Virus record (IMG/VR): IMGVR_UViG_3300047159_000056
Span: 1 to 64,000 of that record
Source of the DNA: a virus
Taxonomy: Duplodnaviria > Caudoviricetes
Length of the DNA stretch: 64,000 bases
Direction: 5' to 3' (one strand)
The notes under the pieces were generated by a model that saw nothing but the letters and a program-made list of their open reading frames with translations, was not told where the DNA came from and ran no database searches. Of this stretch, positions 4,690 through 53,845 are shown in pieces. A program made the position numbers and the translations under genes. How positions within the stretch are numbered: the stretch's first letter is position 1; each line of letters opens with the position of its first letter.

Positions 4690-5904
4690 TTATTTTGCAA
4701 TTTTAATAATTACCGGATGAACTACAACACCCACTATTCCTTGGCTAAATGCACCGGGAACTGCCTTCTTAAGAATATTAAGTGAACCATTTATATCAGC
4801 GTTAATTAATTTTCCTCCTGCTGTCCTAAATAATCCTCTTCTTACTCTTTTTCCTAAATAAGAATCATGTTTTTCTATTGATTCATTATCTAGGAAACTA
4901 CATTTACTGGTATAAGATTCTTCATTAGTTATAAATCTTATTCCTGCCTCTTCACACTTATATTTTAGAATTTCTTTAAACTTATAAAAAGGAATCTGAA
5001 CAAAATTTTGATTATTTGTTTTTCCAAGATTAGTGTTTTGTTTCCACTCTTTATTATATCCTAATACTAGGGTATCTATATTGTTAGAAACTAAGTAATT
5101 CACTATAAATCTAGTTGTTTTATGAAAATAATCTTTTATTTTATTTTCTCTTTTTATTGTCATTCTTTCTATTCTTTTTGTACTGTATCTATGATTAAGT
5201 GTTTTAGAGATGGATTGATAATAAGATTTCTCCTTATTCCAATATTGATTGATATTTTTTACTGGAGTTCCTTTTATAATAATTGGAACCATCTTAGTAT
5301 TGCTTGTCATAGAAACTAAGTTATCAACTCCTAAGTCTATAGAAGCACAATTCTTAGGGTTATCTAATATACTGATGTTTCTAGTTGGTGCTTCATAGAC
5401 AAGATTAATATAAATATGACTTCCGTGATGAGAAATAGTTACTTCCTTAAGACTATCCCACGTAACTCTTCTTGTATTAATAGGAATATTAAAATTAGTT
5501 CTATATAAGTGCAATATGTTTTCAGAATATCTTTTCTTAGATATAGCCTGCTTGTCATATATTACAATATTTCTTCCCTCTAATCCCCTATCTTTATATT
5601 TTGGTATCTTAGCAATACATCCAGGAGTTTTAAGAAGAGCAAAGAAAGACATCCAATTCTTGTCTAGTTTTCTAAGAATATCTTGACTAACCTTAGCTGG
5701 AAGAGCTCTATAGTCCGGATTATTTGCTTTAACTAAGATTCTATTGAGACTATAATAATTTGTGTAAGACTTATTTAATATATAGTTTTGTCTTATTATA
5801 TAGTTTGCTGCATTATATAGGTTCTTAGATAAAAAACATAAGTTATCTAGAGTTTTCCAGAGGGAGTTAGTTTTCTTAATCAGGATTTTCTCCGTCTTTA
5901 TCAT
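4690..5904 (-). CDS. tnpB: RNA-guided endonuclease TnpB
   Basis: SKNLYNAANY N-terminus, RuvC motifs SIDLGVD, EESYTSKC and NADINGSLNI. Confidence 0.93.
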   Translation of the reverse strand: MIKTEKILIKKTNSLWKTLDNLCFLSKNLYNAANYIIRQNYILNKSYTNYYSLNRILVKANNPDYRALPAKVSQDILRKLDKNWMSFFALLKTPGCIAKIPKYKDRGLEGRNIVIYDKQAISKKRYSENILHLYRTNFNIPINTRRVTWDSLKEVTISHHGSHIYINLVYEAPTRNISILDNPKNCASIDLGVDNLVSMTSNTKMVPIIIKGTPVKNINQYWNKEKSYYQSISKTLNHRYSTKRIERMTIKRENKIKDYFHKTTRFIVNYLVSNNIDTLVLGYNKEWKQNTNLGKTNNQNFVQIPFYKFKEILKYKCEEAGIRFITNEESYTSKCSFLDNESIEKHDSYLGKRVRRGLFRTAGGKLINADINGSLNILKKAVPGAFSQGIVGVVVHPVIIKIAK

Positions 5905-6469
5905 TTTCTAATTCTTTTATTAATTTTTCAGTTCTTCTTTTTGTTCTTCTCTGACCATATAGTCTAGAGCAAAAAGATGTAATAATGGAAACAAAATCTG
6001 TCATTAGATCATTATTGTCTCCAACCATATTATTAACTACTTCAATTGATCTTCCTTGCATTTCTAGTAATTTTTGAATATAGTTTATTCCAAATCTAGC
6101 TAATCTATCTTTATGCTCTACTACTATAATATCGATTCCCTTATCAAGTAGGAGTTTTTCAAGTTTAGGTCTATTATCATTGAGACCAGAACCTATTTCT
6201 TTTACTATATGCTTTACCTTATATCCTTTGGCATTGCAATAAGAAATCAGTCTATCAGCTTGACTATCAAGATTAGTTTTATTTTCAGAACTGGATATTC
6301 TAACATAGATAGCAACATTTGGATCTTTCTTAGTTTTTTCATTATCAATAACCCAAATATGACCCGTTGAATCTTTTTCGTAATCTACTTTTCCAAGTTT
6401 TGTCCAGTTCCATGCAGTTCTCTTTGAGATTCCCTGCATCTTAGCAAATTGTGATAATTTATATTTCAT
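5876..6469 (-). CDS. tnpA: IS607 transposase (serine recombinase with N-terminal HTH)
   Basis: AIYVRISS, EIGSGLNDNRPKL, EHKDRLARFG, SFCSRLYGQR. Confidence 0.95.
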   Translation of the reverse strand: MKYKLSQFAKMQGISKRTAWNWTKLGKVDYEKDSTGHIWVIDNEKTKKDPNVAIYVRISSSENKTNLDSQADRLISYCNAKGYKVKHIVKEIGSGLNDNRPKLEKLLLDKGIDIIVVEHKDRLARFGINYIQKLLEMQGRSIEVVNNMVGDNNDLMTDFVSIITSFCSRLYGQRRTKRRTEKLIKELENDKDGENPD

Positions 6470-26417: not shown

Positions 26418-26506
26418 AAAAAAACGAGGAAGCTTAATCATCACGACCTTACTTCCTCTAGAGATTTCAAAATAACATAAACATAAATGCTTCTTCATTA
26501 GTAAGG
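26418..26506 (-). ncRNA. orphan copy of the array-type small RNA
   Basis: Promoter CCTTACTAATG, 34-nt variable part, GAGGAAGTAAGGTC-GTGAT-GATTAAGCTTCCTC-T7. Confidence 0.7.
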
Positions 26507-46593: not shown

Positions 46594-48642
46594 ATGATTA
46601 AAAAAATTATTAATGTTCCTCCCGATATTAGATATATCAGTGATTGGACAGACTTTTCTCAGAATATTGATGAAAAGGATAAAAAATGTATTATTGATAA
46701 GAAGATTCCTGGATGTGGATTTACTGAATGGGTATTAACTAATAATCAAGATGTTATCTTATGTAGTCCAAGAAGAATTCTTTTACAGAATAAAACTGAT
46801 CAACATTTGGGAGAGGTATTTCTTGTGATAAATCTATTTGAAGAAGTAGTAGATTATGGGAAAGATTTAAATAGACCAGCTAAAGGGTCTAGTAAAATTA
46901 AGGTTCCATCTGAAAATGATAATAAAAAGAAAAGTGAATATTTTAAATTATTATCTAAACAAATTTTAAATTACATAGATTTAAGACATGCTGGTGGATT
47001 TCCTGCTAAGATCTTGGTTACATATGATAGTTTTCACCTAGTTAAAGATATACTAACCTTTCAGAATTTTGAATTATTACCAAAATTTCAGGTGGTTGTT
47101 GATGAGTTCCAAAGTCTGCTAGTTGATTCTAAATTCAAAGCTACTACTGAATTAAAATTTATTAGTGATCTTCAACATATAAATAGGGTGTATTATATTA
47201 GTGCTACTCCTATGATGGAAAACTACCTAGACCAAATAGATGAATTTAAAGACCTACCTTATTATGAATTAGATTGGAATGCTCTTCAACCAGGTAGAGT
47301 TGTTAAGCCAAATCTAAAGGTAAGATATGCTAGCTCTATAATAACATCGGCTAAAAAGATAATAAGCGATTATAAAACTGGGAATTTTGAAAAAACCTAT
47401 TTATATAACGAAACTGGTAGTCCTGTTGCTATAGAAAGTAAGGAGGCTGTAATCTATGTAAACTCTGTTAATAATATTTGTAATATAATAAAAAAGTGCG
47501 AACTATTACCAGAGGAGTGTAATATTCTTTGTGCTAAGACTCCTTATAATGATAAAAAAATTTCTAATAAATTGGGAAAAGTATTTAAAATAGGAAAGGT
47601 ACCATTAAAGGGAGAGCCACATAAGATGTTTACATTTTGTACTAGAACTGTCTACTTAGGGGCCGACTTTTATAGTACAAATGCTAGAAGTTTTATCTTA
47701 AGTGATGCTAGTATAGAAACATTAGCAGTAGATATTTCTCTAGACTTACCTCAGATTCTTGGTAGGCAGAGGTTATCAGAAAATCCTTGGAAAAATTCAG
47801 CTACTTTCTATTATAAACCCTTAGCCGCTAATAAGAAAATAACTCAGGATGAATTTAATAATATAATTCAAAAAAAGTATAAAGATACCTTAAATTTAAT
47901 TTCTGGTTATGATTCTGCAAAGTCAGATGAAGTAAGATCAACCCTAATGGATAAGTACAAATTAATTATAGAAACATTTAATTACAAGGATGATTATCTA
48001 GGTTTAAAAGTATTAATTGATAAAATAACTGCTGAAAAACTTTATAGTCCTGTAGTCAATAATCTAGTTATGCTGGCTGAACAGAGAGCTTTTGATATGC
48101 AGCAGATTGATTATGCTGATAGATTTACAGTATTCAATGCTATAAATAGAAATAATATAAATACTGACGATGAAATGAAACAAATTAGTGAGTTTTTTAC
48201 AACTTATAATAGTTTGCCTAGTTTCTTTGAAAAATTAAAATTTTTATGTGAATCTAATTTATCTGGAGTAGTATTGGAACAGGTATTATTACAAATAAAA
48301 GAGCCACATTTTAAAGAATATTATGAAGTTCTTGGACCAAAAAGAATGAGAGAACTAGGATACAATATAACTTTATTTAAGAAGGAATTGAATATAGTTA
48401 CCTTTGATAAAAATAAACTCTATATAGAAATCTATCTTAATTTTAAGGTTGGAGAAAAATATACGAAACCTGAGATAAGAGAGAAATTATCTGAGATTTA
48501 TAATAAGGTAGGATATAATGCTTATCCGAAAGCAACAGACTTAGAAAATTATTTTAATATTAAAAGTATATCTATATATATTAAAGAAAATAATGATCTA
48601 AAAAAATACAATGGGTTTGAAATTTTAAGTGTAAAAAAATAA
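46594..48642 (+). CDS. SF2 helicase-like protein with atypical Walker A
   Basis: PGCGFT (I), VVDEFQ (II), ISATP (III), TRTVYLGADF (V), QILGRQR (VI). Confidence 0.75.
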   Translation: MIKKIINVPPDIRYISDWTDFSQNIDEKDKKCIIDKKIPGCGFTEWVLTNNQDVILCSPRRILLQNKTDQHLGEVFLVINLFEEVVDYGKDLNRPAKGSSKIKVPSENDNKKKSEYFKLLSKQILNYIDLRHAGGFPAKILVTYDSFHLVKDILTFQNFELLPKFQVVVDEFQSLLVDSKFKATTELKFISDLQHINRVYYISATPMMENYLDQIDEFKDLPYYELDWNALQPGRVVKPNLKVRYASSIITSAKKIISDYKTGNFEKTYLYNETGSPVAIESKEAVIYVNSVNNICNIIKKCELLPEECNILCAKTPYNDKKISNKLGKVFKIGKVPLKGEPHKMFTFCTRTVYLGADFYSTNARSFILSDASIETLAVDISLDLPQILGRQRLSENPWKNSATFYYKPLAANKKITQDEFNNIIQKKYKDTLNLISGYDSAKSDEVRSTLMDKYKLIIETFNYKDDYLGLKVLIDKITAEKLYSPVVNNLVMLAEQRAFDMQQIDYADRFTVFNAINRNNINTDDEMKQISEFFTTYNSLPSFFEKLKFLCESNLSGVVLEQVLLQIKEPHFKEYYEVLGPKRMRELGYNITLFKKELNIVTFDKNKLYIEIYLNFKVGEKYTKPEIREKLSEIYNKVGYNAYPKATDLENYFNIKSISIYIKENNDLKKYNGFEILSVKK

Positions 48643-48683: not shown

Positions 48684-49520
48684 CCTTATATATGGAAAAT
48701 TAGAAGTTCCTAAATATTATTTGTTGGTAGAGGAGAAGTCGTGAGATTAGTTCCTCTACTTTTTTAATCATCTTAAATCCTTACTAGTGGAATAGGATTT
48801 ACCATTTCAATCAATTTTAATGAGTAAATAAGGGATAGTTGTGAAACTAGTTCCCCTATTTTTTCGCCCTCTCAAAAACACCTATAATCCTTATATGTGA
48901 AATAAAGAACCATCTTTAATTTTTTGCCCGAAAGGGGCGATTATTTATATTATAGGGGATAGTTGTGAAACTAGTTCCCCTATTTTTTTTTCACCCTCTC
49001 AAAAGCACCTATAATCCTTATATGTGAGTAATATGAATATCGTATCACAATTTTATACAGAGTACAGGGGAAAGCGGATCGTGATGATTAGCTTTCCTAT
49101 TTTTTTTCAACCCTCCTAATTCCTTATAAGTGAAATTAAGAAGAGATTCAATTCATGTTTTTTAATTTGTCCCGAAAAGGGAGTTATTATTTTTTAGGGA
49201 GAACAGATCGAGATGATTAGTTCTCCTATTTTTTTTAACCTTCCTAAAACACCTTAAATCCTTATATGTGAAAGTAAAAGAGATTTCATATTGTTTGCCC
49301 ATTAACGGGTGAATTTTAATTAATAATATTAATAATCTCAGTAGGAGATAGTCGTGATGATTAGTTCTCCTATTTTTTTTTTCGTCCCCCTTAGAAATAC
49401 TTTAAATCCTTATATGTGACAGAGATGTCATTCTCCATAATAAATAACTTCCAAGAGAGGAAGTGGAAAATTAAATGTTTTTTAGGGGATAGTTGTGAAA
49501 CTAGTTCCCCTATTTTTTTT
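48684..49520 (+). ncRNA. tandem array of 7 promoter-driven small RNAs with a conserved 3' hairpin
   Basis: Units 48684-48765, 48779-48864, 48889-48991, 49016-49107, 49122-49236, 49260-49382, 49408-49520. Confidence 0.82.
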
Positions 49521-49563
49521 CGTCCTTAGATCCTTACTAGTGTGAGAATAAAAATAAAAGTTT

Positions 49564-49743
49564 ATGAAGAGAGTAGAAATAGTGCTTGAGTCATTTTTAG
49601 CAATTGACATAGTTTTAATAGTTCTTAGATTATTTAGTGTAATTAGTTATCCTCCAGTCTGGGTACTCCTATTACCTATCTTAGTACCACTAGTAATTAT
49701 GGGTTTAATGATGTTTTATATATTTATTAGATTAGTAAAATGA
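49564..49743 (+). CDS. 59-aa membrane protein, similar to 63220-63426
   Basis: IVLRLFSVISYPPVWVLLLPI vs LVLRLTGVIGWSYWWIFSPI; promoter at 49532. Confidence 0.65.
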   Translation: MKRVEIVLESFLAIDIVLIVLRLFSVISYPPVWVLLLPILVPLVIMGLMMFYIFIRLVK

Positions 49744-50924
49744 GTAAGGTAGAAGAATTTTTATTAGGTAAGGATAGTTTAGATTTAGCTCAGCAGAAAG
49801 AGTTAAAAGGTTTCCTGCAGAATGAGTCTAATTATCCTAGGAAATTAGTCTTAGATTTTATTATAAAGTCTGCTATGGCTAGTGTATCTGTAGTACCTGG
49901 GGAAGGTTCTAGTGAATTAATTGTCTTAGATAAGGAGATAACTGAGCTAAATGGTCTTGGTGACTTAGCTAATATGGTTATTTCTGGTTTTCCTGATAAG
50001 GTTGAACTAGATAATTTTCTTATTAAGTTTAGGAATATTACTAGTCATCTGGATAAGATTAGGAGAGGATTTAGTGGAAGGGATGCTACTAAGAGGGTTT
50101 GCACTGTTGATATTGGTGGTAAACGGATTATAACAGAGCAGGTTCTTCTTATGAATTCTAGCATGTTTGGCACTAAGAATCTTCTCTTAATTATAGATAT
50201 GCAACTAGATTTTATTAGTGGTAGTCTAGCTGTTCCTGGTGGTAGAGATGCTGAGTCTAATCTAACAAAGTGGATAGACATTAATAGGAATAGGATTGAC
50301 AGTATCTTATTATCTAGGGATGATCATTACCCTTCTCATATAGGGATGACTTGTTCTTGGTTAGGGAAAGATGGAAATATAGTAGAGCCATTTATTACAA
50401 TTAGTTCTAGTCAGGTAAAGGATGGTACTTATACACCAAGATTTATGAGTAAGGAGGGTGCTATATCTTACTTAGAGGAAATAGAGAAGAGGGGATATAC
50501 ACATACTACTTGGCCTTTACATTGCATCAGGGGATCTAGGGGTCAGCAATTTAGTGAGGACTTATTACGATCTCTTAGGTGGTGGTCAATGTCTCATAAA
50601 GGGGAGCATTACTTAATTCTTGACAAGGGAGAGAAGGATGATTCTGAGATGTACAGTATTTTCTCTTACTTAAATGGTTATGATCCTTCTTATACAAAAA
50701 ATTGTTTAGATAATATAAGTTCTGGCAATTTTGATAAGATATTTATTGCCGGCTTAGCTAAGGATTATTGTGTAGCTAATAGTGTAAAGGATCTCTTAAG
50801 TGATTCTAGATTTGACGGAAAGCTTGTATTCTTAGATTCCTGTATGGCGTCTATTAATACAGAGTCCCCTAGTCTTAGCATTTATCTTGATGCTATAAAG
50901 AATCATTCAGATCAGATGGCATAG
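49740..50924 (+). CDS. pncA: nicotinamidase (isochorismatase family) with ~140-aa N-terminal extension
   Basis: IIDMQLDF, GSLAVPG, DDHYPSH, WPLHC, DKG, AGLAKDYCV. Confidence 0.85.
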   Translation: MSKVEEFLLGKDSLDLAQQKELKGFLQNESNYPRKLVLDFIIKSAMASVSVVPGEGSSELIVLDKEITELNGLGDLANMVISGFPDKVELDNFLIKFRNITSHLDKIRRGFSGRDATKRVCTVDIGGKRIITEQVLLMNSSMFGTKNLLLIIDMQLDFISGSLAVPGGRDAESNLTKWIDINRNRIDSILLSRDDHYPSHIGMTCSWLGKDGNIVEPFITISSSQVKDGTYTPRFMSKEGAISYLEEIEKRGYTHTTWPLHCIRGSRGQQFSEDLLRSLRWWSMSHKGEHYLILDKGEKDDSEMYSIFSYLNGYDPSYTKNCLDNISSGNFDKIFIAGLAKDYCVANSVKDLLSDSRFDGKLVFLDSCMASINTESPSLSIYLDAIKNHSDQMA

Positions 50925-50981
50925 AATCCTTACTAGTGGAAGCTAATAGTGGTTTCCATAATATCCAAAAAATTAGTAAAG

Positions 50982-51134
50982 ATGCATATTTTTGGAAAAG
51001 CTTTGAACAAGGCATTAAATGTGTCTTGGTGTGCTGTAGTTATATTTGCAGGAGCTACAGTTGTTGAATGGGGTATAAATGGGTTGATCGAAAACATTTG
51101 CTCCAAAGAAAAAAGAAGTAGAAGAAGTTCCTGA
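50982..51134 (+). CDS. small membrane protein (C-terminus probably frameshifted)
   Basis: Promoter at 50928 and AATAGT-loop leader at 50938-50957. Confidence 0.55.
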   Translation: MHIFGKALNKALNVSWCAVVIFAGATVVEWGINGLIENICSKEKRSRRSS

Positions 51135-51225
51135 AGAGAAGAAGGACGAGGAGTTCGAGGAGCTTTAGAAAAACTTTGAGAGAAAGGTAATTAGTTTTGC
51201 CTTTCTTTTTTTGCTCCCCTTGATC

Positions 51226-51304
51226 CCTTATATATGTTAAATATGTTAATGTTTTTTTTTGAAAACGGGAGGAGAGCAGGTCGTGAGATTAGCTCTTCTT
51301 TTTT
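51226..51304 (+). ncRNA. orphan copy of the array-type small RNA
   Basis: CCTTATATATG, U-rich segment, GGAGAGCAGGTC-GTGA-GATTAGCTCTTC-T6. Confidence 0.7.
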
Positions 51305-51362
51305 GCTCCTTGTTTCTCTCTTAATCCTTATAATTGAATAAAAAAAACAAAAAAATTTAATT

Positions 51363-52055
51363 ATGACAGAATTAGAAAAATTTAAAGAGCGTTATGGTTT
51401 TAACACAGGTTCAGTAAAATGGTTACCTCAGGGTGGTGAATTATTGAAGTATATTGGTCAGGAGGTTATCTTGATTGAATATACAAAGAATGAGGACAGT
51501 AGTTGGTCTAGTTCTTACAGTCCAGTTCAGGTAAATTCTATTGATTCTTATGATCCAAAGACTAATACATATAAGATAGTTTATTCTTATAAGGACAAAC
51601 CTGAAGTAGATGAAGAGGAGAGAATTATTCCAGAGGGTTATAGATTTTTTCCTGGTGAGATGGTAGAGAATACGAATTATACTAATCAATTTATTCCAGA
51701 ATCTACTCACTTAAGATGTATTGAAGAAAGTGGGTTTTATTCTAGCCTAAGTTCTATGTGGTCGAGTAAGCCATCGGAGAACTTAGATAATATTAATAGT
51801 ATGATAAAGTCGAGTGATACGCAGAAGGGTGAGACTTTGATTAGAAGAATTCACTTAGCTGCAGTAATAAAGACATCTTCCAATGATATCTTATACTTTA
51901 GAATTATTAAGTTTAGGTATCGTACTAGGAAGGGAGGATTAGTTGAATTAGAGCTAAGGGATTCAGAGAATAACTTAGTAACTGCTACGGGTCAGAAGAA
52001 CAGTGTATCTTATAGATTATCTGGCATTGGAGAACTAAAAATTATATTATTATGA
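51363..52055 (+). CDS. hypothetical protein
   Basis: 230 aa. Confidence 0.75.
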   Translation: MTELEKFKERYGFNTGSVKWLPQGGELLKYIGQEVILIEYTKNEDSSWSSSYSPVQVNSIDSYDPKTNTYKIVYSYKDKPEVDEEERIIPEGYRFFPGEMVENTNYTNQFIPESTHLRCIEESGFYSSLSSMWSSKPSENLDNINSMIKSSDTQKGETLIRRIHLAAVIKTSSNDILYFRIIKFRYRTRKGGLVELELRDSENNLVTATGQKNSVSYRLSGIGELKIILL

Positions 52056-52202
52056 GAAAATTCACATCTAGTGACATTAAAGAAGACGACCAAGTATTAG
52101 AGGTTTTAAGAAAGAGTTTAAGAAGCATATAGCAAGAATAGGAGGACTTAGTCATTGGGATAAGATAGCACCTCCTGATATGTCTGTACTGCTATTAAAG
52201 AA

Positions 52203-52721
52203 ATGATAGTAGCTATAGATTCATACTATTACAGTGACACCGATTGTTATACAGTTGGTGTCCTGTTTTCCAAGTGGGAGCAATCTAAGCCAAGTAGGAT
52301 TATATCTTGTCATACTTCTGAATTTGCTCCATATTGTCCTGGTAAGTTTTATACAAGGGAGTTACCTGGTATACTTAACCTAATGAAGAGGAAAGAGGTA
52401 GAGGGAATTGATACTATTGTCTTAGATTCTTTCTTAAGTCTGAAGGATAATGATGGTAGTATTAAGGAGGGTCTTGGTTGTCATTTAAGGGAGTATTTTC
52501 CTAGTATATCTTTAATTGGTGTAGCTAAGTCTGAGTATTGTTTATCCAGGGACATTAGTATTCCTGTTATTAGAGGTTTAGCTAGAAATCCTTTATGGGT
52601 TCAGGGTATGGGAGAGTACAATAATAGTTTAGCGGCTAGTTGTATTAAGAGTATGTTTGGGGATTATAGAATACCGGATCTCTTAAAAATTCTAGATAAG
52701 GAGACTAAGAAATATAGATAG
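52203..52721 (+). CDS. nfi: endonuclease V
   Basis: AIDSYY, YCPGKFYTRELP, IVLDS, GLG.HL, IGVAKS, YRIPDLL..D. Confidence 0.88.
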   Translation: MIVAIDSYYYSDTDCYTVGVLFSKWEQSKPSRIISCHTSEFAPYCPGKFYTRELPGILNLMKRKEVEGIDTIVLDSFLSLKDNDGSIKEGLGCHLREYFPSISLIGVAKSEYCLSRDISIPVIRGLARNPLWVQGMGEYNNSLAASCIKSMFGDYRIPDLLKILDKETKKYR

Positions 52722-52795
52722 TAAGAGGGGAGAAGACATTTTATAGTTTTCTCCTTTCTTTTCCTTATTTATGTAATGAAAAATAAATTTAAGAA

Positions 52796-53845
52796 ATGGA
52801 TAAATTATTAGAGTTAAGTGACATTACATTGTGTCCTTCCCCAACAAATGAGGGAAGATTTGGAAGTGCAGCAAATAATTATACTGTACTAGATATGACA
52901 GATAATAGTGGAATTGTTGGTACTCTTCCCATATTTACCAGTCCTATAGAATCAGTTGTTGGAATAAATAGCTGTGAATTATGGATTAAGAATGGGATTA
53001 GACCGATTATACCAAGGACCGAATCAGTTGAAAATAGATTGAAGTGGTGTGTTTGGATATTTTCTGCTTTTAGTTTGTCAGAATTAAAGAGGTTATTTTT
53101 GGATCAGGATAGGAGAAATCTAGGTCCAAAGATTCATATAATGGTTGACGGATCTAATGGTCATAGTATAGAGATAATTGGTATGTGTAAATGTTTAAGA
53201 GACAAATATGGGGATCAATTAATTATTATGGCAGGGAATGTAGAAAATCCTGATGCTTATGGTGTATATAGTGAAGCTGGTATTGATTATATGAGAGTAG
53301 GAAGAACTACGGGTGCTGTCCTAGATAGATCAAAGTATGGATTTCATTATCCCCTAGCTTCATTACTTCTTAAGTTACAGGAGTTTAGAAATCCCGACTT
53401 GCATGGTAAATTCTCAAAATGTAGGCCAGTAAAGATTATAGCTGATGGAGGTATAGGTAGTATGTCTGATGTTATGAAAGCTATGGCCTTAGGAGCAGAT
53501 TATGTTATGATAGGAAGGGAATTTGCTAGAATAATAGAGGCAGAGGGTTTAATATATGCCAGGTCAAAGAATCCGACTAGTGGAGAATTTGAATTAAATG
53601 AAGTAGATAAGCAGGATAGATATTATGAGTCTTCTGGTTATGAGGCCGCATGTAATGGTTTTTGCAGGTCTTATAGAGGAGGAAGAAAAGATAAAACTGC
53701 TGCTTCCTGGAATTGGGTAGACATTAATATATCCATGAAAGAGTGGGTAGATGAATTTAAGAACTGTGTTAATTATGGTTTTATGATGTCTAATACAAAG
53801 AACTGGGAGGATTTTAAGAAGAATACAATTTATGTTAGATCCTAA
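52796..53845 (+). CDS. IMPDH/GMP reductase-fold protein
   Basis: VDGSNGHS, IMAGNV, IIADGGI, KAMALGADYVMIG. Confidence 0.82.
   Translation: MDKLLELSDITLCPSPTNEGRFGSAANNYTVLDMTDNSGIVGTLPIFTSPIESVVGINSCELWIKNGIRPIIPRTESVENRLKWCVWIFSAFSLSELKRLFLDQDRRNLGPKIHIMVDGSNGHSIEIIGMCKCLRDKYGDQLIIMAGNVENPDAYGVYSEAGIDYMRVGRTTGAVLDRSKYGFHYPLASLLLKLQEFRNPDLHGKFSKCRPVKIIADGGIGSMSDVMKAMALGADYVMIGREFARIIEAEGLIYARSKNPTSGEFELNEVDKQDRYYESSGYEAACNGFCRSYRGGRKDKTAASWNWVDINISMKEWVDEFKNCVNYGFMMSNTKNWEDFKKNTIYVRS

What the first reader, a model, noticed from the sequence alone, without database searches (positions are those of the whole stretch)
48790..49450. Variable segments of the array read as antisense to translation-initiation regions
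Seen: most variable segments contain CAT 12-22 nt after the promoter, followed by a T-rich run. Their reverse complements look like the A-rich, SD-less starts used throughout this genome. Unit 2: cattaaaattgattgaaATGGTAAATCCTATT (MVNPI). Unit 3: caaaaaattaaagATGGTTCTTTAT (MVLY). Unit 5: caaattaaaaaacATGAATTGA (stop follows, so pairing would be short or imperfect). Unit 6: caaacaatATGAAATCTCTTTTACTT (MKSLLL). Unit 7: gttatttattATGGAGAATGACATC (MENDI). Unit 4: gtataaaattGTGATACGA (possible GTG). Unit 1 has no start codon. I found no gene with these starts in the window. Inference: trans-acting sRNAs that block ribosome loading on specific host mRNAs (for example defence genes) or on other phage mRNAs.
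Basis: partly seen in the sequence, partly recalled or inferred. Interest (0 to 1): 0.88.

Follow-up and report, generated by a model that had tools for sequence, protein, structure and literature searches.

The report
Phage array of anti-start-codon small RNAs
A wastewater-associated jumbo phage, probably of Bacteroidales, carries a row of seven tiny RNA genes built on one promoter-and-terminator frame, and most have a front end that mirrors a translation start site, so they probably switch off chosen messenger RNAs; no target could be pinned down.

Summary
Observation confirmed; targets not found. Window 48684-49520 holds seven ORF-less units: promoter, variable 31-69 nt body, conserved terminator hairpin. 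Five of seven bodies have CAT 12-22 nt after the promoter (2.5 expected). The signal replicates in 26 units outside the array, from this phage and relatives (13 vs 8.9, p=0.04). With a start-site profile trained on a Bacteroidales genome, reverse complements beat shuffles (array p=0.03, other phages p=0.018, all p=0.004), while gene leaders, intergenic DNA and the sense strand do not. The implied second codons follow host usage (p=0.002). Only about half of all units are of this type. No convincing target was found in the 207 kb held (of about 340 kb), in phage relatives, or in several hundred sampled Bacteroidales genomes. A PNPase start pairs with unit 2, but no better than shuffled controls do. 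Transcription is unshown. Best reading: a repertoire of trans-acting sRNAs that block ribosome loading on host mRNAs (about 50%), built like Bacteroides FopS/GibS but with a different seed per copy. The scan flagged this same stretch before. Elsewhere it reported single anti-start phage RNAs; my look-ups returned no such array.

The parts
48684..48766 (+). Unit 1: promoter 48684-48694, body 48695-48725 (no anti-AUG), terminator hairpin and U-tract
48779..48864 (+). Unit 2: promoter 48779-48789, body 48790-48826 with anti-AUG at 48803 (implied start MVNPI), hairpin
   Evidence: PNPase candidate
48889..48990 (+). Unit 3: promoter, body 48900-48951 with anti-AUG at 48911 in a predicted 5' loop (MVLY), internal GC hairpin, terminator hairpin
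49016..49107 (+). Unit 4: promoter, body 49027-49067 with possible anti-GUG at 49046 (does not score above shuffles, p=0.5), hairpin
49122..49236 (+). Unit 5: promoter, body 49133-49196 with anti-AUG at 49154 (implied frame stops after 2 codons), internal hairpin, terminator hairpin
49260..49380 (+). Unit 6: promoter, body 49271-49339 with anti-AUG at 49287 (MKSLLL), internal hairpin, terminator hairpin
49408..49520 (+). Unit 7: promoter, body 49419-49482 with anti-AUG at 49436 (MENDI) and 49429; strain SNP at 49433; strain compensatory pair 49487/49508 in the hairpin
49532..49542 (+). Eighth promoter copy, which drives the ordinary gene at 49564 and ends the array
51226..51307 (+). Dispersed unit with the same frame, no anti-AUG
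26418..26506 (-). Dispersed unit with the same frame; CAT close to the promoter (implied MLL), weak score; the orthologous place in L001 holds a cluster of units
46594..48642 (+). Helicase-like gene upstream: a neighbour, not shown to be a partner

Best explanation
Each unit is a stand-alone small RNA gene of about 70-110 nt. SHOWN in sequence: own promoter copy, variable 5' body, covarying terminator hairpin, no conserved ORF, and, in about half of all units, a statistically real mirror image of a Bacteroidales start region (U-rich stretch, CAU, then the complement of 2-6 codons). INFERRED: the units are transcribed early from promoters that also drive ordinary phage genes. Each seed pairs imperfectly (roughly 11-20 bp) across the AUG and the A-rich upstream region of one or several host mRNAs and blocks 30S loading, as FopS-10 does in Bacteroides thetaiotaomicron. 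The array is a modular repertoire: the frame is duplicated and kept while the seeds turn over between phage species. Which mRNAs are hit is unknown.
For: Anatomy. All nine hairpins of this family picked up by a census of 52 terminator-like sites lie away from ORF ends, whereas 30 of the 52 follow an ORF. The upper stem is 100% paired in 17 copies with two-sided changes at 3 of 4 pairs (copies are related, so this is not a probability), and strains show a G-C to A-U swap. Anti-start enrichment replicates outside the array. With the ATG fixed, upstream (p=0.0003) and downstream (p=0.001) context both fit host starts (shuffles there include GC-rich internal hairpins, which inflates the upstream value). 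Codon 2 follows host usage, p=0.002. No self-target in the 207 kb held or in 5,113 candidate starts from relatives. The named thymidylate synthase homologues among the top hits are Bacteroidales. Precedent: PMC11697453; SD-less, A-dependent initiation: PMC6847099.
Against: No host target beats chance. The unit 2-pnp duplex (-20.2 kcal/mol, rank 1 of 1,147 starts in a genome picked for that match) equals the median best hit of shuffled unit 2 (-20.4), and the RNase Y candidate ranks 116 of 1,148. Perfect 18-20 nt matches turn up by chance inside genes, and even an inter-unit spacer matches a RimM start. About half of the units lack the signal. The anti-AUG of unit 2 is predicted to be paired. 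The host species is unknown and about 40% of the phage genome was not searched.
Confidence: 0.5

Rival explanations
1. The same antisense mechanism, but aimed at phage mRNAs: the phage's own genes in the unsequenced ~133 kb (a timing switch), or genes of competing phages.
For: The record is 56% complete and the same proteins lie on a 340,045 bp contig. Phage starts are as A-rich as host starts. Self-targeting phage antisense RNAs are common (sar, OOP, aQ; PMC12197685).
Against: No good match in the 207 kb held, in G001 (which carries putative replication and transcription genes not seen here) or in 80 loci of gut jumbo relatives. Self-regulators usually share one seed with many own leaders, whereas these seeds all differ.
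Confidence: 0.17
2. The RNAs are decoys or broad-spectrum competitors rather than gene-specific guides. They would titrate a host RNA-binding protein (an RbpB-like RRM protein, an RNase) or pair loosely with many common starts (AUGAAA, AUGGAA) to damp host translation generally.
For: About half of the units have no anti-AUG but keep the frame. Seven of 19 implied starts are ATGAAA or ATGGAA, 33% of host starts together. The FopS seed, which RbpB binds, also contains a U-run followed by CAU. The 3' arm UAG is invariant in 17 hairpins.
Against: Twelve of 19 implied starts are other hexamers, and ATGACA occurs four times against 2.4% in the host (post hoc). Decoys would not need seven different bodies that are almost invariant across strains. 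Similar terminators follow ordinary Bacteroides genes, so the hairpin need not be a protein handle.
Confidence: 0.17
3. Empty gene cassettes: promoter-terminator modules like the PeSL elements of T4-type phages, left after gene loss and serving as recombination sites, with functionless bodies.
For: The same promoter drives ordinary genes. Unit number and content differ at the orthologous site (7 here, 3 in L001). A unit plus its downstream gene is 99.7% identical between this phage and G001. PeSL precedent: PMC2839356.
Against: It does not predict reverse-complement start signals, which gene leaders and intergenic DNA lack. Bodies show no sense-strand start remnants (p=0.87). The hairpin family is not used behind genes in this record.
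Confidence: 0.12
4. The CATs are real start codons of micro-ORFs on the minus strand, or the bodies encode plus-strand peptides.
For: Start-like context by construction.
Against: Minus-strand frames from the five start-like CATs are only 2-15 codons and run into the promoter. There is no minus-strand promoter motif in the array. Strain indels, including a 10 nt duplication in unit 7, shift the plus-strand frames. Several implied frames stop after 2-6 codons.
Confidence: 0.04

Closest known systems
FopS/GibS sRNAs of Bacteroides thetaiotaomicron (PMC11697453)
   Same: Multicopy sRNAs with a single-stranded 5' seed plus intrinsic terminator, each mostly with its own promoter. The seed has a U-run and CAU, and FopS-10 blocks initiation by pairing beside the start codon.
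   Different: FopS copies are chromosomal, share one seed and have shared targets. Here the copies are phage-borne, several stand in tandem, and each has a different seed. No Rfam match.
Phage trans-acting sRNAs on host mRNA: DicF (Qin prophage, ftsZ), PreS (lambda, dnaN), VpdS (VP882) (PMC12197685)
   Same: Phage-encoded RNA that pairs with host mRNA; DicF blocks translation.
   Different: Single, Hfq-associated RNAs of temperate phages of Proteobacteria. Here there are at least ten units on one frame in a jumbo phage of a phylum that, from my own knowledge, lacks Hfq.
Phage antisense RNAs on own genes: P22 sar, lambda OOP and aQ (PMC12197685); P1/P7 c4 (own knowledge)
   Same: Repression of phage mRNA by pairing; sar occludes a translation start.
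   Different: Their targets lie in the same genome with long complementarity; none was found in the 207 kb held.
PeSL cassettes of RB49/phi1 (PMC2839356)
   Same: Repeated promoter plus terminator stem-loop modules in plastic regions, with signs of modular exchange.
   Different: PeSLs bracket protein-coding genes. These bracket ORF-less bodies with an antisense start signature.
CRISPR and other guide arrays (own knowledge)
   Same: Constant frame with variable inserts.
   Different: Each unit has its own promoter and terminator, so no processing is needed; inserts vary from 31 to 69 nt; no perfect protospacer-like match and no effector were identified.

Membership tests
Trans-encoded base-pairing sRNA | Own promoter and intrinsic terminator, no ORF | tested here: met
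   Sequence only:
Trans-encoded base-pairing sRNA | Expressed as a discrete small RNA | tested here: inconclusive
   Only low-depth contigs; DNA carry-over not excluded
Trans-encoded base-pairing sRNA | Seed complementary to translation-initiation regions as a class | tested here: met
   about half of the units
Trans-encoded base-pairing sRNA | A specific target pairing above chance | tested here: inconclusive
   None found, but the true host genome is unknown
Trans-encoded base-pairing sRNA | Seed-dependent repression rescued by compensatory change | not testable with these tools
   needs a reporter assay
FopS/GibS family | R1/R1' seed shared by all copies, or a match to the family model | tested here: not met
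   No Rfam family reached its gathering score (whether FopS is in that release was not checked). Bodies differ from each other and share only a U-run plus CAU with the published R1' consensus
Cis or self-targeting phage antisense RNA (sar, OOP, c4 type) | Extended complementarity to an mRNA of the same genome | tested here: inconclusive
   None in 207 kb; about 133 kb not held
PeSL-type cassette | Promoter plus terminator repeats flanking protein-coding ORFs | tested here: not met
   Repeats present, but no ORF between them
CRISPR-like guide array | Constant-length spacers with near-perfect matches to foreign DNA and a linked effector | tested here: not met
   Body length 31-69 nt; no match in phage or plasmid collections; the neighbouring helicase-like gene is not consistently linked

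The most novel reading that the evidence does not exclude
The units form a swappable, programmable knock-down arsenal. One constant RNA frame, possibly loaded on a host or phage RNA-binding protein, carries seeds against individual host start codons, perhaps including RNA-decay genes such as pnp and rny, and is exchanged between co-infecting jumbo phages as an RNA-only counter-defence and takeover system.
Probability: 0.2. Interest if true: 0.88.

Novelty: new variant of a known kind. Interest (0 to 1): 0.63.

Why it matters
The phage sRNAs that I found described as acting on host mRNA are few, single and from temperate phages of Proteobacteria. A jumbo phage with ten or more sRNA genes on one frame, each with its own seed, would be a multiplexed RNA route to host takeover in Bacteroidales. 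The seeds would also point, by pairing alone, to the host genes that the phage must silence, and the frame could serve as a natural scaffold for gene knock-down in laboratory Bacteroides.

Tried and rejected
Rfam: nothing at gathering score. Array or unit 2 against phage and plasmid records: chance hits only. Self-targets in 207 kb and in relatives: none. Array against 301 Bacteroidales genomes (only two candidates scored per genome), a 16-species family, a 4-species genus and 31 Bacteroides: chance-level hits, including a 20/20 match inside a TPR-like gene. RNA-decay theme recalled from memory: pnp starting MVNPI exists (3 of 16 genomes in the G014 family, 3 of 401 in the family that holds Bacteroides) and G014 rny starts MIVI, as one G001 unit implies. 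But duplex energies are not above shuffles, every sampled pnp MVNPI start has T before ATG where the seed implies A, and G014 rpsA and one DEAD-box gene do not fit the other predictions. Kept only as leads. RNA runs: small shares, depth 2-5 on true matches, uninformative for expression or habitat. Helicase-like gene as partner: arrays in G001 lie far from it, and 80 homologous loci mostly lack units. Further unit scans added nothing.

Full report
Setting. The window is the first 64 kb of a 207,396 bp virus record, 32% GC, rated 56% complete; the same proteins occur on a 340,045 bp contig. The named thymidylate synthase homologues among the top hits are from Bacteroidales, Muribaculaceae and Prevotella at 70-72% identity. 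Gene starts are A-rich and lack an SD, and the promoter core resembles the Bacteroidetes -7 element TAnnTTTG (own knowledge). I infer a Bacteroidales host; the species is unknown. A close relative comes from a wastewater assembly (L002).

Anatomy. Between a helicase-like gene (ends 48642) and a 59-aa gene (49564) lie seven units: promoter CCTTAYWWRTG, a 31-69 nt body, and a hairpin with a GWGA-type loop, a UAG in the 3' arm and a U-tract. An eighth promoter drives the next gene. Three more units are dispersed (51226 +, 26506 -, genome 206,123) and one appears broken by an IS605-like end. The nine family hairpins recovered in a census of 52 terminator-like sites are all away from ORF ends, while 30 of the 52 follow an ORF. 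The 4-bp upper stem is fully paired in 17 copies with two-sided changes at 3 of 4 pairs, and strains carry a G-C to A-U swap in unit 7. Weaker look-alikes end ordinary Bacteroides genes (26-33 bits), so the hairpin may simply be a host-style terminator.

Relatives. L001 (about 75% nucleotide identity) has three units at the same site with different bodies, plus a second cluster. G001 has clusters of five, three and three units, none beside the helicase-like gene. More distant relatives have scattered single units. In all, 33 distinct bodies were collected, 26 of them outside the array.

The observation. All quoted segments are correct. CAT lies in the tested window in 5/7 array bodies (2.5 expected, p=0.038), 13/26 outside bodies (8.9, p=0.041) and 18/33 overall (11.3, p=0.006), and it is the top trinucleotide of 64. 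Only 6 of 36 gene leaders behind the same promoter have it. A start-site profile trained on 1,147 starts from 1.6 Mb of a Bacteroidales genome scores the reverse complements above dinucleotide shuffles: p<=0.0025 for 42-nt bodies, and p=0.03 (array), 0.018 (other phages) and 0.004 (all) for the first 28 nt, which mostly excludes the GC-rich internal hairpins. Gene leaders (p=0.88), intergenic windows (0.22), 3' parts of bodies (0.34) and the sense strand (0.87) are null. The implied second codon follows host usage (p=0.002). The only substitution in the first 40 nt of any body among the strains, C to T at 49433, is silent in the implied Glu codon and keeps pairing to G; this is one event. The signal is real but moderate: units 1 and 4 and about half of the outside units do not show it.

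Targets. None in the 207 kb or among 5,113 candidate starts of relatives. Searches of sampled Bacteroidales gave chance-level hits, often inside genes. A lead from memory was that MVNPI is the N-terminus of PNPase. It is, in a few genomes, and in G014 pnp ranks first of 1,147 for unit 2 at -20.2 kcal/mol. However, that genome was chosen for the match, and shuffled bodies reach a median best of -20.4. G014 RNase Y starts MIVI, as a G001 unit implies, but ranks 116 of 1,148, and two further predictions failed in G014. These are leads, not results. RNA runs did not show expression.

Mechanism. Bacteroidota initiate without SD pairing and rely on upstream adenines and low structure (PMC6847099). 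An RNA pairing across the AUG and the A-rich stretch would block initiation, as shown for FopS-10 (PMC11697453). I give 0.50 to gene-directed repression of host mRNAs, 0.17 to phage targets, 0.17 to decoy or broad-spectrum action, 0.12 to empty cassettes and 0.04 to micro-ORFs. Shown: anatomy, non-coding nature, conserved fold, class-level anti-start signature. Inferred: transcription, timing, targets, any protein partner.

Comparison and novelty. It works like FopS/GibS and like DicF (PMC12197685) but is not a member of the FopS family. It resembles PeSL cassettes (PMC2839356) in layout only. Literature searches found no report of a tandem array of separately promoted phage sRNAs with different anti-start seeds; the library is incomplete. 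Verdict: new variant of a known kind, interest 0.63, held back by the missing targets and missing expression data.

Noticed in passing
G000:C1:206069-207396 and G001:C1:4785-6113: A 1.3 kb block (one full sRNA unit, the hairpin of another, and a 347-aa gene) is 99.7% identical between two otherwise about 70% identical phages: recent exchange, or an assembly chimera at the contig end.
   Followed up: partly
G000:C1:205998-206045; G001:C1:21000-22720: IS605-type DNA sits right beside or inside sRNA units in both phages; here an IS end replaces the body of one unit. TnpA of this cluster was seen mostly among small phage-like genes.
   Followed up: partly
window 48695-48725; L001:9371-9660; G001:C1:22961-23066: Several units without anti-AUG share a short AGAAUA-like motif near the 5' end, possibly a second functional class.
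   Followed up: no
window 48930-48940, 49170-49184, 49296-49311, 49449-49464: Long bodies carry a small GC-rich hairpin between seed and terminator; relatives have equivalents.
   Followed up: no
window 4690-6469 (-): IS607-like pair (404-aa TnpB-like ORF and 197-aa resolvase-like ORF, by my reading); nearest genome hits only 39-47%.
   Followed up: partly
window 49740-53845: Nicotinamidase-like gene with an extra N-terminal region, an endonuclease V-like gene and an IMPDH/GMP reductase-like gene downstream of the array.
   Followed up: no
G000:C1:76450-77697: 415-aa ORF whose N-terminus looks, from memory, like a diversity-generating retroelement reverse transcriptase.
   Followed up: no
L508, L509, L511, L514: Unrelated viral contigs share an element with a long U-rich stretch ending in CAU just before a GUGA-loop terminator, like a FopS-type anti-start sRNA; no promoter of this family.
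   Followed up: no
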